Shown one piece after another: positions 17,069-20,112 of a stretch of DNA of 64,000 bases. Origin of the DNA: Acutalibacteraceae bacterium. Its GTDB lineage: Bacteria > Bacillota > Clostridia > Oscillospirales > Acutalibacteraceae. The stretch's first letter is position 1. Each line of letters opens with the position of its first letter. The position numbers and the translations under genes are program-made. The notes beneath the pieces are model-generated. The model made no database searches. It saw only the letters and a program-made list of their open reading frames with translations, and was not told where the DNA came from. The stretch is from positions 4,316 to 68,315 of the forward strand of contig JBJEQD010000105.1 of NCBI GenBank assembly GCA_051881575.1, in the 5' to 3' direction.

Positions 17069-17305
17069 CCTCCGTCATTTGCTTCGCAAATGCCACGCTG
17101 ACGGCGCCGTCCCCCTTTGTCTGCTTCGCAGACATTTCCCCCACACTGCGGGGGAATCGACCTTTTCAAAGGAGGCCAACGAAGCAGTAACCTACTGCAT
17201 AGGCTCCTTTGGCAACTCCCTCCGTCACGGCTGCCGCCTCGGTCGGTGCTTCTGAGCTTTCGCTCAGAGGTTGCCACCGGCAACCCGCACCCTCAAGAGG
17301 GAGGC
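17069..17305. repeat. Two tandem CC(C)TCCGTCA...hairpin...GAGGC cruciform repeats, each with an inner hairpin module
   Basis: Shared start CCTCCGTCA (17069, 17219) and end GGAGGC; internal hairpins at 17076-92, 17118-34, 17136-56, 17251-68, 17270-84. Confidence 0.65.
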
Positions 17306-17396: not shown

Positions 17397-17507
17397 AATT
17401 CGTTCTTTCATATGCCGCAGGCATATTTCATATTTGCGAAGCAAATATTTCACAGCAAAGCTATTTCACTCGTTCCGAAGGAACGAATTTATTGAAAAAG
17501 CACTTCC
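17397..17507. repeat. TTTCA-punctuated array of short triloop hairpins
   Basis: TTTCA-[TATGCC GCA GGCATA]-TTTCA-[TATTTGC GAA GCAAATA]-TTTCA-[AGC AAA GCT]-TTTCA-[TCGTTCC GAA GGAACGA]. Confidence 0.75.
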
Positions 17508-17601
17508 ATTTTTTCTTTGCCCGAAGGGGAATTTACTATGCGGTAATTTCTTCTCGCCCTCTGCTCTTTTTTCTAAATAGTCTTATGTTTTTGTAGGTAT
17601 G

Positions 17602-18519
17602 TTATCTTTCAATAGACCAAAGAATCATATCTATTTTTCTTGGTGTCCAAAAATCTGTATTGAATTTATGATTTAACTCATCAGCTTTTTCTCTCATTAT
17701 TTCTATCAAAATGACACCGTCGCTTTTTTTCAAGGAATTGGGATTCATTTTATGCAGTTCATTGCAATATTTGGAGATATATAATTCTTTAAGTCGTTTT
17801 GCAACAAATTGGTCTATTGTTCCGAATTTTTGAGGAAAAATCACCGCTAATAATCCGCTTGCACCCGCTGCGCCAAGTCCGTGTATCTTGGTTGCCAAAT
17901 CTAAGCATTGTTCAATATCGTTATGATTCATTGTAAATATCTGAATTTGAATTTCGGCAAGTAAAGATAAGTTATCTTCGTCAACATATTTTTTTAATGC
18001 TTTTCTCGTTGTTGCCAAACGATTTTTTTGCGTGTATTTCCATACAAAATATTTGTCGTATAAGAAATCATAAAAATCTGTAACTGATAAAGCTTTTATT
18101 TCGTCTGCATTAAGATTTTCAATATATTTTTCTATTGCAATTTGTTCTTCCTTTAAAATTTCGTAATAATGGTTTAGTGCTCTTTCCCAATCCTCTTTTG
18201 AACCGTTTTCCCATAGAAATTTGAGAGATTTTTCTTCTGTAGCATAGCTTTCAAAATTTTTTATTGTCCTATTATCATTATCAATAAGACTTTGCTTTTT
18301 TTCATAATAACACACTTCGTCTGTATTTAATTGCATTGATACTTCATCAAATTTAATTTCATCTATACCATTATTTTTGGATTCGTTTTTGAAGTTTATA
18401 ATTCTTCCTGCTTTATAGCTTTTATGTAGCTTAACTATCAAAAAAATAACTGCCAAGCCAACAAACGCAATAAGAATATAGCTCCCGATTTCTTCAAAAA
18501 GACTATCAAGAATTGTCAT
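17602..18519 (-). CDS. Hypothetical protein: N-terminal TM helix + C-terminal HhH-GPD-like (DNA glycosylase-like) domain
   Basis: TM segment at residues ~12-30; IHGLGAAGASGLL hairpin motif, GTIDQFV acidic motif and terminal IDMILW; strongly AT-rich; SD GAGGTG. Confidence 0.55.
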   Translation of the reverse strand: MTILDSLFEEIGSYILIAFVGLAVIFLIVKLHKSYKAGRIINFKNESKNNGIDEIKFDEVSMQLNTDEVCYYEKKQSLIDNDNRTIKNFESYATEEKSLKFLWENGSKEDWERALNHYYEILKEEQIAIEKYIENLNADEIKALSVTDFYDFLYDKYFVWKYTQKNRLATTRKALKKYVDEDNLSLLAEIQIQIFTMNHNDIEQCLDLATKIHGLGAAGASGLLAVIFPQKFGTIDQFVAKRLKELYISKYCNELHKMNPNSLKKSDGVILIEIMREKADELNHKFNTDFWTPRKIDMILWSIER

Positions 18520-18667
18520 ATATAATGCACCTCAAAATCTTGCTTTAAATAATTGTATCATAAAAAACAATGTTTGTCTATTTTATAAAAAATAATTTAT
18601 AATTAAGAATTTTCACACAGTATGGATGTTTGAAAATCCTCGAAACATCGGTATTTAAGTAATAAAA

Positions 18668-18743
18668 AATTCGTTTTTCAAATTTGCAAAACAGCTGTTT
18701 CTCTTGTTCTGCAAGGAACGAATTTCATTGAAAAAGCACTTCC
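18668..18743. repeat. Eroded second copy of the TTTCA hairpin array
   Basis: AAGGAACGAATTT(C)ATTGAAAAAGCACTTCC at 18713-18743 matches 17478-17507 with one indel; AATTCGTT start also shared. Confidence 0.75.
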
Positions 18744-18759
18744 GAAGAAGTGCTTTTTC
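18730..18759 (-). terminator. Intrinsic terminator after the tRNA 3' copy
   Basis: GAAAAAGCACTTC-TTCG-GAAGTGCTTTTTC on the minus strand. Confidence 0.75.
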
Positions 18760-18868
18760 TTGGCCCGCCCGAAGGGATTCGATTCGCACGCCTGCGGGCG
18801 TTTGGTCGCTCGCGGTCACAACGCTCCACCGGAGCGTTGCTCTGTGCCGCTCGTCCTTCGAATCCCTT
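18760..18868 (-). repeat. Duplicated tRNA-Arg 3' end with inverted T-arm and 74-bp insert
   Basis: 18760-18782 identical to 18915-18937 (23 bp); AAGGGATTCGA...TCGAATCCCTT inverted arms. Confidence 0.85.
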
Positions 18869-18873
18869 ATCAT

Positions 18874-18915
18874 GCAAAAAACCGACAGGTCAGTCTTCGA
18901 CTGCCCTGCCGGTTT
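18874..18915 (-). terminator. tRNA-Arg terminator
   Basis: AAACCGGCAGG-GCAGTC-GAA-GACTG-A-CCTGTCGG-TTTTTT on the minus strand. Confidence 0.7.
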
Positions 18916-18992
18916 TGGCCCGCCCGAAGGGATTCGAACCCCCGATCTTCAGAATCGGAATCTGCTGCGTTATCCAACTGCGCCACGAGCGG
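18916..18992 (-). tRNA. tRNA-Arg (anticodon CCG)
   Basis: Cloverleaf CCGCTCG...CGGGCGG-G-CCA; anticodon loop TT-CCG-AT; T-loop TTCGAAT; encoded CCA; promoter TTGACT-17-TATATT at 19041-19013. Confidence 0.95.
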
Positions 18993-19041
18993 AAATGTTA
19001 AGTTACTATGAGAATATACACCAAATCGGGTCAAAAGTCAA

Positions 19042-19077
19042 GGCAATGCCGCACAATAATTATTGCACGGTATTGCC
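19042..19077. terminator. Hairpin after iolC
   Basis: GGCAATGCCG...CGGTATTGCC stem. Confidence 0.5.
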
Positions 19078-19092
19078 CCGTTTAAATCGTAA

Positions 19093-20112
19093 TTATTTGA
19101 TTTTTTCGATAACCTCGCCAGAGGTCGGCTTGGTTTTGTCGATGAACTCCTGAACAGCCTGAGCCGAGGGCATTGCTGCGGAACAGCTGTGAGCCGAAAC
19201 AAGCATTGAAGCCGAAGCCGTTGCAAATTCAAGCGCATCGGGAACGCTCTTGCCGTTCAGCAGAGAATAAATGAACGCCGATGCGTATCCGTCGCCGCCG
19301 CCGAAGCCTTTGAGCATCTTAACGGGGAACGGTTTAACCTTATATGCCGAGCCGTCGTTCAGGTAGGCAACGGAGCCTTCCTTGCCGTGCTTGATAATTA
19401 CAATCTTATTGCCGTAAGAGAACCAACGCTTTGCGGATTCTTCATCGTCGGCGCAAACACCCTCGATAGCTTCCGTGAGGTCAAACTCCTCTCTTGAGCC
19501 GAGGATAATATCGCTGTTTTTGGCGGCGATTGAATAATAAATCGAAATCTCGTCCTTATTCTTCCATGTGTAGCTTCTGTAATCGATATCAAAGATAACG
19601 ACAACGCCGTTTTTCTTCGCAAGGAAAAGAGTTTTGAGAGCCGCTTCTCTTGACGGGCTTGTGCAGAGAGCCGTGCCCGAAATAACAACAGCCTTTGCGG
19701 TCTTTATGTATTCCTCGTCAACATCGTCAACGCAGACCTGCAAATCCGCAACGCCGTCACGGTACATAAGAATACTGCTCTGAGTGGGGCTGAGAATTTC
19801 GGTAAAGGTCAGGCCAAGCTTTTCGCCGTTTTCGCATCTGAAAACATGAGAAACATCAATGCCGTCAGCCTTGAAATAATTCTCAACATAATCGCCGAAC
19901 TGATCGTCGGATACCCTTGCGATAAAGCCGCACTTTGCGCCGAGCCTTGCAAGACCGACTGCAATATTTGCGGGCGAACCGCCGACATATTTATTGAAAT
20001 TACTGCTCTGAGAAAGCGGCATATTCATATCGGTGGGGTTAAAATCGATTGCGATTCTGCCGATGGGGATAACATCCAAAGGCTTGGTTTTGTCAAATTC
20101 AATATAACTCAT
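19093..20112 (-). CDS. iolC: 5-dehydro-2-deoxygluconokinase (PfkB family)
   Basis: IGRIAIDFN...KYVGGSPANIAVGLARLG, FDIDYR, GFGGGDGYASAF are IolC-type motifs. Confidence 0.88.
   Translation of the reverse strand: MSYIEFDKTKPLDVIPIGRIAIDFNPTDMNMPLSQSSNFNKYVGGSPANIAVGLARLGAKCGFIARVSDDQFGDYVENYFKADGIDVSHVFRCENGEKLGLTFTEILSPTQSSILMYRDGVADLQVCVDDVDEEYIKTAKAVVISGTALCTSPSREAALKTLFLAKKNGVVVIFDIDYRSYTWKNKDEISIYYSIAAKNSDIILGSREEFDLTEAIEGVCADDEESAKRWFSYGNKIVIIKHGKEGSVAYLNDGSAYKVKPFPVKMLKGFGGGDGYASAFIYSLLNGKSVPDALEFATASASMLVSAHSCSAAMPSAQAVQEFIDKTKPTSGEVIEKIK

What the first reader, a model, noticed from the sequence alone, without database searches (positions are those of the whole stretch)
18760..18937. 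tRNA 3' copy turned into a perfect palindrome and split at the T-loop by a 74-bp insert with a 5-bp duplication
Seen: 23 bp of the tRNA end are repeated 155 bp downstream. On the plus strand: AAGGGA-TTCGA-[74 bp, 18783-18856]-TTCGA-ATCCCTT. Removing the insert and one TTCGA gives the perfect 18-bp palindrome AAGGGATTCGAATCCCTT centred on the T-loop. Both the tRNA and the copy are followed by their own terminators. Known: tyrosine integrases often cross over in the T-loop symmetry. Inference: either a symmetrised att site or the footprint of a miniature element that targets TTCGA in tRNA T-arms.
Basis: partly seen in the sequence, partly recalled or inferred. Interest (0 to 1): 0.65.

Follow-up and report, generated by a model that had tools for sequence, protein, structure and literature searches.

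The report
RtT-like hairpin module behind tRNA-Arg
The "split palindrome" is the closing stem of a small gene-less structured element that sits behind many different tRNA genes in gut Clostridia, with ends that always match the neighbouring tRNA's tail; it has the same design as the poorly understood RtT repeats behind E. coli tRNA-Tyr.

Summary
In detail: the 23-nt repeat, the 11-nt inverted arms and the 74-nt GC-rich interior are all present. The reading as an insert with a 5-bp TTCGA duplication is wrong.

The same 74-nt core lies 60-70 nt downstream of at least 10 different tRNA genes in Oscillospirales MAGs. In every case the 5' flank is the reverse complement of that tRNA's nt 54-65 and the 3' flank is a copy of nt 55-76. 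With non-palindromic T-loops such as TCAAGT the flanks are inverted, not direct. So the "duplication" comes from TTCGAA being its own reverse complement, and the "palindrome" is helix P1 of a three-helix fold with an unpaired acceptor-strand-CCA tail.

A related genome (L027) shows that the distal copy and its terminator are the ancestral tRNA end. The proximal tRNA tail, terminator, arm and core make up a 155-bp insertion. Older, decayed tRNA-tail copies lie further out.

I found no integrase in cis. E. coli RtT (RF00391) has the same architecture but no sequence similarity.

Best reading (about 0.5): a non-autonomous, RtT-like integrative module at the T-loop-to-CCA att segment. An RNA role is not excluded.

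The parts
18916..18992 (-). Intact tRNA-Arg(CCG) with encoded CCA. Its last 22 nt (nt 55-76) are the proximal copy of the repeat.
   Evidence: ARAGORN; Rfam RF00005 51.9 bits
19013..19041 (-). Promoter-like site of the tRNA (TTGACT-17-TATATT), conserved in L023 and L027 while the rest of the spacer diverges.
   Evidence: alignment
18876..18915 (-). Proximal intrinsic terminator (AAAACCGGCAGG..CCTGTCGGTTTTTT), read here as element-borne. It is 75% identical to its L027 counterpart, with compensatory stem changes.
   Evidence: inverted repeat I2; alignment
18858..18868 (-). 5' arm of helix P1, AAGGGAUUCGA in tRNA sense. It is the exact reverse complement of tRNA nt 55-65; the next base, A at 18857, complements T54.
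   Evidence: (I9)
18783..18857 (-). Conserved core, 95-100% identical between loci. It holds P2 (18804-18856, tip CAACGCUCC-GGU-GGAGCGUUG at 18819-18839) and P3 (18788-18801).
   Evidence: blast; alignment; pair counts; folds; CM R1 132.9 bits
18772..18782 (-). 3' arm of P1, UCGAAUCCCUU: a copy of tRNA nt 55-65 (T-loop positions 2-7 plus the T-stem 3' strand).
18761..18771 (-). Unpaired 3' tail CGGGCGGGCCA: a copy of the acceptor 3' strand, discriminator base and CCA.
18730..18759 (-). Distal terminator (GAAAAAGCACUUC-UUCG-GAAGUGCUUUUUC), read as the ancestral terminator of the tRNA. In L027 it is shared and attached to an older, decayed tRNA-tail copy.
   Evidence: I5; alignment
17519..17529 (-). 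Second, decayed tRNA-Arg tail copy (CCCCTTCGGGC) followed by a terminator remnant. It marks an older boundary of the accretion array; the 305-aa gene cassette lies between it and copy 1.
   Evidence: blast

Best explanation
The 155 bp from tRNA nt 55 to the end of the core (18783-18937) is a gene-less, non-autonomous integrative module of an RtT-like family. It is inserted in the T-loop-to-CCA segment of tRNA-Arg(CCG). It brought a replacement tRNA tail (nt 55-76), its own terminator, a 5' arm and a conserved 74-nt core. It pushed the original tRNA tail and terminator 155 bp downstream.

Shown: the architecture; its recurrence behind many tRNAs with ends matched to each; the ancestral nature of the distal tail and terminator; stacking of older units distally; and a covarying three-helix single-strand fold (P1 arms, P2, P3) with an unpaired acceptor-CCA tail.

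Inferred: insertion is by site-specific recombination in the T-loop, as for T-loop-class tyrosine integrases, with the enzyme supplied in trans. The P1/P2 hairpin is the part the recombination machinery needs, possibly as a folded single strand. Read-through transcripts would give an RttR-like RNA ending in CCA, either as a by-product or as a second function.
For: (1) The repeat spans exactly T-loop position 2 to CCA. This is the identity block typical of T-loop-class tRNA integration, where strand exchange occurs in the 7-base T-loop (PMC1762012). Islands restore the split tRNA gene and displace a fragment of it (PMC4383910).
(2) The window and L027 are syntenic upstream at 84% identity. They share the distal terminator and its downstream sequence at about 93%. 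In L027 that terminator is joined to an older, decayed tail copy behind a different core. This indicates that new units enter at the intact tRNA and older ones move outward. L033 and the window's copy 2 at 17519-17529 show the same.
(3) Strain L002 has an identical PfkB neighbour. Its sequence is near-identical to the window up to tRNA nt 64, differs at nt 65-66 and is unrelated after CCA. So the tRNA tail is a recombination boundary in this species.
(4) The core is multi-copy. Its depth in gut metagenomes is 100-270, against about 7 for the flanks, and contigs break inside it. It sits behind 10 tRNA anticodon types as class A and 15 if other cores with the same hairpin are counted. One genome has four or more copies, and its L006 and L033 cores are 74/74 identical behind tRNA-Met and tRNA-Trp.
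(5) No promoter-like site lies between the proximal terminator and the module.
(6) In the Flavobacteriales analogue the duplication runs 11 nt past the tRNA end, which points to a DNA-level event.
Against: No tyrosine recombinase motif was found in the 64-kb window or within about 4 kb of some 25 element loci (this is a heuristic scan). The one integrase found next to a copy belongs to an unrelated IME.

No empty-site allele or copy-number polymorphism was found.

Canonical double-strand att recombination does not explain why the 5' arm is an exact inverted copy of nt 54-65. It also does not explain how one core came to have matched arms for so many tRNAs.

Between orthologous loci the core is 96% conserved, against 75% for the adjacent terminator and 84% for coding DNA. 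This fits either selection on a product or gene conversion.

The E. coli analogue RtT yields a processed RNA (annotated rttR). Metatranscriptome contigs also contain the core.
Confidence: 0.5

Rival explanations
1. The module is mainly an RNA gene, an RtT-like tRNA-trailer RNA. Read-through of the tRNA terminator gives a transcript that folds into P1-P2-P3. tRNA 3'-end processing enzymes trim it to the CCA of the copied tail. It then acts in tRNA metabolism, for example as a decoy or sponge for factors that bind tRNA 3' ends. Copies behind different tRNAs would arise by local duplication and concerted evolution.
For: The architecture matches E. coli RtT, whose Rfam consensus has the closing helix and an unpaired CCACCACCA tail. 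The annotated rttR RNA starts 7 nt after tyrV and ends at that CCA. P3 and the P2 base show compensatory changes, and one-sided changes are mostly G.U on the tRNA-sense strand (6 cells against 2 A.C). L055 has two compensatory pairs in the P2 tip. The module is always co-oriented with the tRNA. The core is more conserved than neighbouring DNA. It is present in metatranscriptome contigs.
Against: A strong terminator always separates the tRNA from the module, and no promoter-like site lies between them. The RNA evidence comes from undirected contigs that may include DNA. P1 shows no G.U at all in 176 cells, more like a templated DNA inverted repeat than an evolving RNA stem. Local duplication does not explain identical cores behind unrelated tRNAs with different terminators.
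Confidence: 0.22
2. The module is a self-retargeting element. Only the roughly 74-nt core moves, as a folded single strand or by template switching at the replication fork. At each new tRNA locus its two ends are newly templated from the target: an inverted copy of nt 54-65 and a direct copy of nt 55-76. No classical integrase is involved.
For: Cores are near-identical or identical while arms, tails and terminators differ completely. The arms are exact Watson-Crick complements of the T-stem 3' strand, not copies of the tRNA's own G.U-containing 5' strand. P1 shows only double changes. Arm length varies from 9 to 13 nt with sharp ends. In L006, L014, L025 and L030 the terminator is duplicated on both sides of the core. 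No recombinase is found in cis.
Against: No such mechanism is known. In the window, L015, L028 and L033 the two terminators are unrelated, which fits an element-borne terminator better. Gene conversion between copies could also homogenise the cores.
Confidence: 0.2
3. One reading: a 74-bp MITE that targets TTCGA and duplicates 5 bp, inserted into a perfect 18-bp palindromic (symmetrised) att site.
For: In this one locus the sequence can be parsed that way.
Against: Copies at tRNAs with TCAAGT, TCGAGT or TCAAAT loops have inverted, not direct, flanks and no duplication. The flanks vary with the tRNA, whereas MITE terminal repeats are constant.
Confidence: 0.03

Closest known systems
RtT RNA / rttR, the 178-bp repeats behind E. 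coli tyrT-tyrV (Rfam RF00391)
   Same: Tandem units lie directly behind a tRNA gene, on the same strand. Each unit has a 5' arm that is the reverse complement of the tRNA's T-stem 3' region (GGGGAAGGAU against AUCCUUCCCC), GC-rich inner hairpins, a 3' copy of the tRNA tail ending in CCA, and an unpaired acceptor-CCA tail after the closing helix.
   Different: There is no sequence similarity: RF00391 gives no hit in the window at E<=10 and model R1 scores 8.7 bits on RtT. RtT copies nt 58-76 and pairs about nt 59-68, whereas this family copies nt 55-76 and pairs nt 55-65. RtT is known only behind tRNA-Tyr in enterobacteria and has no terminator between units. This family follows at least 10 tRNA types, and each unit has its own terminator.
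T-loop-class tRNA-integrating elements (for example mycobacteriophage Ms6; islands in the Islander catalogue)
   Same: The identity block runs from the T-loop to the 3' end. The tRNA is regenerated, and a displaced tail fragment marks the far end (PMC1762012, PMC4383910).
   Different: This module is 155 bp with no integrase or cargo. Its arm side carries an inverted copy of the crossover region separated from it by a conserved hairpin core.
CIMEs (cis-mobilizable elements) and tandem accretion at tRNA genes
   Same: It keeps att repeats but lacks integration genes, and units stack in tandem with other units at the 3' end of a tRNA gene (PMC5704250).
   Different: CIMEs are decayed ICEs or IMEs of variable content. 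This is a uniform, highly conserved, multi-copy structured unit, and no parent ICE was identified.
Folded single-strand recombination sites (integron attC, CTX phage attP)
   Same: A stem closes a variable or structured interior. Structure is conserved more than sequence, and the stem duplex reproduces the target sequence (inference).
   Different: The R''/R' consensus (RYYYAAC/GTTRRRY) and dif-like sequence are absent, and no IntI is nearby. This is only an analogy.

Membership tests
RtT (RF00391) | Match to the Rfam covariance model at or above 45 bits | tested here: not met
   No RtT hit at E<=10 in window 18300-19300 or at gathering score in 14 related loci. The positive control on E. coli scored 133-138 bits.
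RtT (RF00391) | Unit behind a tRNA gene with a closing helix made of the tRNA's T-stem 3' region and a 3' tail that copies the tRNA end through CCA | tested here: met
   for the window; for RtT.
RtT (RF00391) | Released as a discrete processed RNA from the tRNA transcript | not testable with these tools
   Only undirected metatranscriptome contigs are available.
T-loop-class integrative element | Direct repeat of the tRNA segment from the T-loop to the 3' end, with the tRNA regenerated | tested here: met
T-loop-class integrative element | Tyrosine integrase gene inside the element or adjacent to it | tested here: not met
   The element is 155 bp. The ORFs downstream have no integrase domain. 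No HxxR..GH..Y motif occurs in the window or the element loci (heuristic).
CIME | attL and attR retained while integration and transfer genes are lost | tested here: met
CIME | Derived from, and mobilised in cis or trans by, an identifiable ICE or IME with the same att | tested here: inconclusive
   The only integrase-bearing neighbour (L010) is an IME with other insertion sites.
MITE | Constant terminal inverted repeats and a direct target-site duplication | tested here: not met
   The flanks covary with the tRNA and are inverted. There is no duplication at non-palindromic T-loops.
REP/RAYT element | GTAG-footed hairpin | tested here: not met
   No GTAG lies next to P2 or P3 on either strand.
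Integron attC | R''/R' boxes RYYYAAC...GTTRRRY | tested here: not met
   The arms are AAGGGATTCGA/TCGAATCCCTT.

The most novel reading that the evidence does not exclude
RtT of E. coli and this Clostridial family may be members of one widespread, undescribed class of tRNA-trailer mobile modules. A conserved hairpin core would move between tRNA genes and have both ends re-templated on the target: an inverted copy of the T-loop and T-stem 3' strand, plus a direct copy of nt 55-76. The tRNA gene would then be both landing pad and template, possibly through a folded single-strand intermediate recognised by a still unknown trans-acting enzyme that reads the CC-GGU-GG hairpin.
Probability: 0.2. Interest if true: 0.85.

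Novelty: new variant of a known kind. Interest (0 to 1): 0.6.

Why it matters
The RtT repeats have been known since 1978 (date from memory) without a satisfying account of their origin or function.

This family has the same design. It is multi-copy, sits behind at least 10 different tRNAs with ends matched to each, and is nearly identical across genera. That makes RtT-type elements look like a general, active phenomenon rather than a curiosity of one E. coli operon.

The family offers a natural series of variants for testing how such ends are made. It can also be used to test whether tRNA genes host a class of gene-less integrative parasites or a class of tRNA-linked regulatory RNAs. In practice, the 74-nt core breaks metagenome assemblies at tRNA loci.

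Tried and rejected

2. Rfam on the locus: only the tRNA was found.

3. Phage, plasmid and viral searches. Phage records matched only the tRNA and plasmids gave nothing. The uninterrupted palindrome plus tail and the core hairpin are both absent from IMG/VR. An arm-based scan gave one host-flank copy, L055.

4. Integrase lead. The 430-aa tyrosine integrase next to the L010 copy belongs to a large IME family with MobA_MobL, HTH_17, an HTH repressor and the integrase. Its right end...AGAYAAAnnnGAATTT, abuts many different sequences. I rejected it as the partner.

5. Large serine recombinase genes abut copies in L016 and L055. They do not generate 22-nt repeats, so I did not take them as the mechanism.

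6. Empty-site and polymorphism hunt. Contigs carrying the identical PfkB or 305-aa proteins are too short or break in the core. Only one run holds the distal flank. L057 and L058 are identical to their references.

7. IS200/IS605-type insertion 3' of TTCRA and insertion into a pseudo T-arm were both rejected, because the left flank at TCAAGT loops is ACTTGA, not TTCAA.

8. The terminator scan tool found none. I judge this a limit of the tool, because the T-runs are paired with A-runs.

Full report
**Observation.** On the minus strand the window encodes tRNA-Arg(CCG) at 18916-18992. In tRNA sense the downstream sequence reads as follows:
- the tRNA, ending ...GGGGG-TTCGAAT-CCCTT-CGGGCGG-G-CCA;
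- a terminator hairpin and T-run (18915-18876);
- the spacer GCATGAT;
- AAGGGATTCGA (18868-18858);
- A;
- a 74-nt GC-rich stretch (18856-18783);
- TCGAATCCCTT-CGGGCGGGCCA (18782-18761);
- a second terminator (18759-18730).

The 23-nt direct repeat (155-nt spacing) and the 11-nt perfect inverted arms are confirmed, and neither is expected by chance.

**The element is repeated.** When gut metagenome contigs are laid on the locus, 18781-18854 reaches depth 100-270 while the flanks are at about 7. Many contigs leave the window sequence at 18772/3 and 18865-8 into unrelated DNA, and some of that DNA reads as the ends of tRNA-Ser genes. Two independent Logan contigs break at the same base inside the stretch.

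I scanned 185,579 species genomes for the central hairpin CAACGCTCCGGTGGAGCGTTG. This returned 30 loci, about 24 of them from Oscillospirales MAGs (Acutalibacteraceae, Oscillospiraceae, Ruminococcaceae and others). The metagenome scan added nine loci.

In every class-A locus with enough upstream sequence, the 74-nt core (95-100% identical) lies 60-70 nt downstream of a tRNA gene on the same strand. The tRNAs are Arg-CCG, Arg-ACG, Met, Leu-GAG, Leu-CAG, Ser-GGA, Ser-CGA, Pro-TGG, Pro-CGG and Trp. Other cores that share the hairpin follow Gln, Ala, Leu-TAA, Tyr and, in a Flavobacteriales MAG, Phe. Tandem arrays of 150-164-nt units occur in L006, L011, L014, L025 and L030.

**What the "palindrome" is.** The 5' flank of the core is always the reverse complement of nt 54-65 of the upstream tRNA. 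The 3' flank is a copy of nt 55-76. Examples:

| tRNA | 5' arm | 3' arm |
|---|---|---|
| Arg | AAGGGATTCGA | TCGAATCCCTT |
| Met | GGAGGACTTGA | TCAAGTCCTCC |
| Pro | GAAGGGACTCGA | TCGAGTCCCTTC |
| Pro-CGG | GGGATTTGA | TCAAATCCC |

(Sequences.)

On a 16-sequence alignment the closing helix P1 has 7 of 14 pairs changed on both sides and none changed on one side. Overall 93% of cells pair, against 31-40% when partners are slid. None of 500 shuffles reached the observed values.

With non-palindromic T-loops there is no direct duplication at all. The apparent 5-bp TTCGA duplication exists here only because TTCGAA is its own reverse complement. The arm is also a Watson-Crick complement of the T-stem 3' strand (AAGGG), not a copy of the tRNA's own 5' strand (GGGGG), so it is a true inverted copy.

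Inside the core, P3 shows compensatory changes (A-U to G-C in 7 sequences; entirely different hairpins in L014 and L028). The P2 base has U.G variants. A copy found independently through its arms (L055) has two compensatory pairs in the P2 tip but keeps the CC-GGU-GG loop.

The RNA fold is P1-P2-P3 plus an unpaired 11-nt acceptor-CCA tail. One-sided changes favour folding of the tRNA-sense strand, with 6 G.U cells against 2 A.C. Four of those six may trace to a single event.

**Which parts are inserted.** L027 comes from a related species: its upstream genes are 84% identical to the window's. It carries the same tRNA, a homologous proximal terminator (75% identical, with compensatory stem changes), identical arms and a 96% identical core.

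In L027 the 3' copy is interrupted by a second, different hairpin module with its own 13-nt arm. That module ends in a decayed tRNA tail joined to the same distal terminator and downstream sequence as in the window. So the distal tail and terminator are the ancestral tRNA end. The proximal tail, terminator, arm and core form the 155-bp insertion, and newer units enter at the intact tRNA.

L033 shows the same stacking. The window shows it too. A further decayed tail copy (CCCCTTCGGGC, 17519-17529) with a terminator remnant lies beyond a 1.2-kb cassette that carries the 305-aa gene.

Strain L002 has an identical PfkB protein. Its sequence matches the window up to tRNA nt 64, differs at nt 65-66 and is unrelated after CCA. 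The tRNA tail is therefore a recombination boundary within the species.

This is the signature of T-loop-class integration. There a core of about 26 bases is shared, exchange occurs in the 7-base T-loop, and changing the core retargets integration (PMC1762012). It also fits tandem accretion with gene-less derivatives (PMC5704250).

**What is missing.** I found no recombinase in cis.
- The ORFs downstream of the module have no integrase domain.
- A motif scan found no tyrosine recombinase in the 64-kb window or around about 25 element loci.
- The one integrase beside a copy (L010) belongs to an IME family that inserts at many unrelated sites.
- Large serine recombinase genes abut two copies, L016 and L055, but such enzymes do not make 22-nt repeats.
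- No empty-site allele or copy-number polymorphism was recovered.

**Closest known.** Each RtT unit (RF00391, 133-138 bits) starts with GGGGAAGGAU, the reverse complement of the tRNA-Tyr segment AUCCUUCCCC. It contains GC-rich hairpins and ends with AAUCCUUCCCCCACCACCA. The Rfam consensus structure has exactly this closing helix and an unpaired CCACCACCA tail. The annotated rttR RNA ends at that CCA.

The design is therefore the same as in the window. There is no sequence relationship: RF00391 gives no hit here, and my model R1 scores only 8.7 bits on RtT. The module works like RtT but is not a member of RF00391.

**RNA or DNA.** These points favour a DNA-level origin:
- the stacking order of units;
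- the element-borne terminator;
- the absence of a promoter between terminator and module;
- the Flavobacteriales analogue, whose duplication runs 11 nt past the tRNA;
- the strictly Watson-Crick arms.

These points favour an RNA product:
- the RtT precedent;
- strand-consistent G.U pairs;
- core conservation above that of neighbouring DNA;
- metatranscriptome contigs that contain the core (undirected, and DNA is not excluded).

The two readings do not exclude each other.

**Novelty.** Searches of the paper library found no description of this family. Earlier agents of this scan met it in other genomes. I rate it a new variant of a known kind (RtT-like, CIME-like). Interest is 0.6, mainly because it generalises RtT and poses a clear mechanistic puzzle: how the inverted and direct ends come to match every tRNA.

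Noticed in passing
window 17420-17495 (-); also L027 2568-2641: The Gut-1 RNA motif (RF01706; 53.2 and 53.5 bits against a gathering score of 50) lies directly after a displaced tRNA-Arg tail copy and terminator. It is the array of small hairpins separated by UGAAAU linkers. A truncated start of the same motif (CAATGAAATTCGTTCC...) follows the distal terminator at 18693-18728. In the window the 1.2-kb cassette lies between that start and the full copy.
   Followed up: partly
window 17531-18692: A 1.2-kb segment carries a 305-aa gene with no Pfam hit (17602-18519). It is bracketed by two copies of tRNA-tail, terminator and Gut-1 start, and it is absent from the syntenic L027 locus. It looks like a cargo cassette added at the same tRNA without an integrase.
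   Followed up: partly
window 17268-17286 (-) and 18819-18839 (-): Two unrelated stems, GGUUGCC-GGU-GGCAACC and CAACGCUCC-GGU-GGAGCGUUG, share the CC-GGU-GG tip on the same strand. L055 and the L033 class-C unit keep this tip while their stems change. The exact 21-mer also occurs in REP-like intergenic palindromes of Alphaproteobacteria (L008, L019, L031, L035) and in an Anaerolineae MAG (L017).
   Followed up: partly
L016 3609-5102 (-) and L055 4274-5794 (+): Large serine recombinase genes end within about 110 nt of class-A modules in two unrelated contigs. In L055 the last codons of the ORF run through a degenerate tRNA-Ser tail and terminator. In L016 the module's 3' copy belongs to a different tRNA (Arg-ACG) than the one upstream (Ser-GGA). 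That could be a rearrangement or an assembly chimera at the repeated core.
   Followed up: partly
L010 4736-6028 (-); L045-L054: A very abundant gut IME family carries a MobA_MobL relaxase, an HTH_17 protein, an HTH repressor and a 430-432-aa tyrosine integrase. Its conserved right end, ...AGAYAAAnnnGAATTT, is inserted at many different sites.
   Followed up: partly
L037 about 1480-1600: Only the 3' part of tRNA-Ser(CGA), from the anticodon loop onward, is present. It is preceded by GGTACCATTT repeats, which looks like the far junction of an anticodon-loop-class integrative element, with the class-A module carried along behind it.
   Followed up: no
L060 (E. coli K-12, record positions 1287066-1287500): The RtT core contains the motifs GCGAAGC and GCGCAGC, known from memory as very stable DNA mini-hairpins with GNA triloops. 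It also contains UGCC-GCA-GGCA, which recurs in the class-B unit of L020.
   Followed up: no
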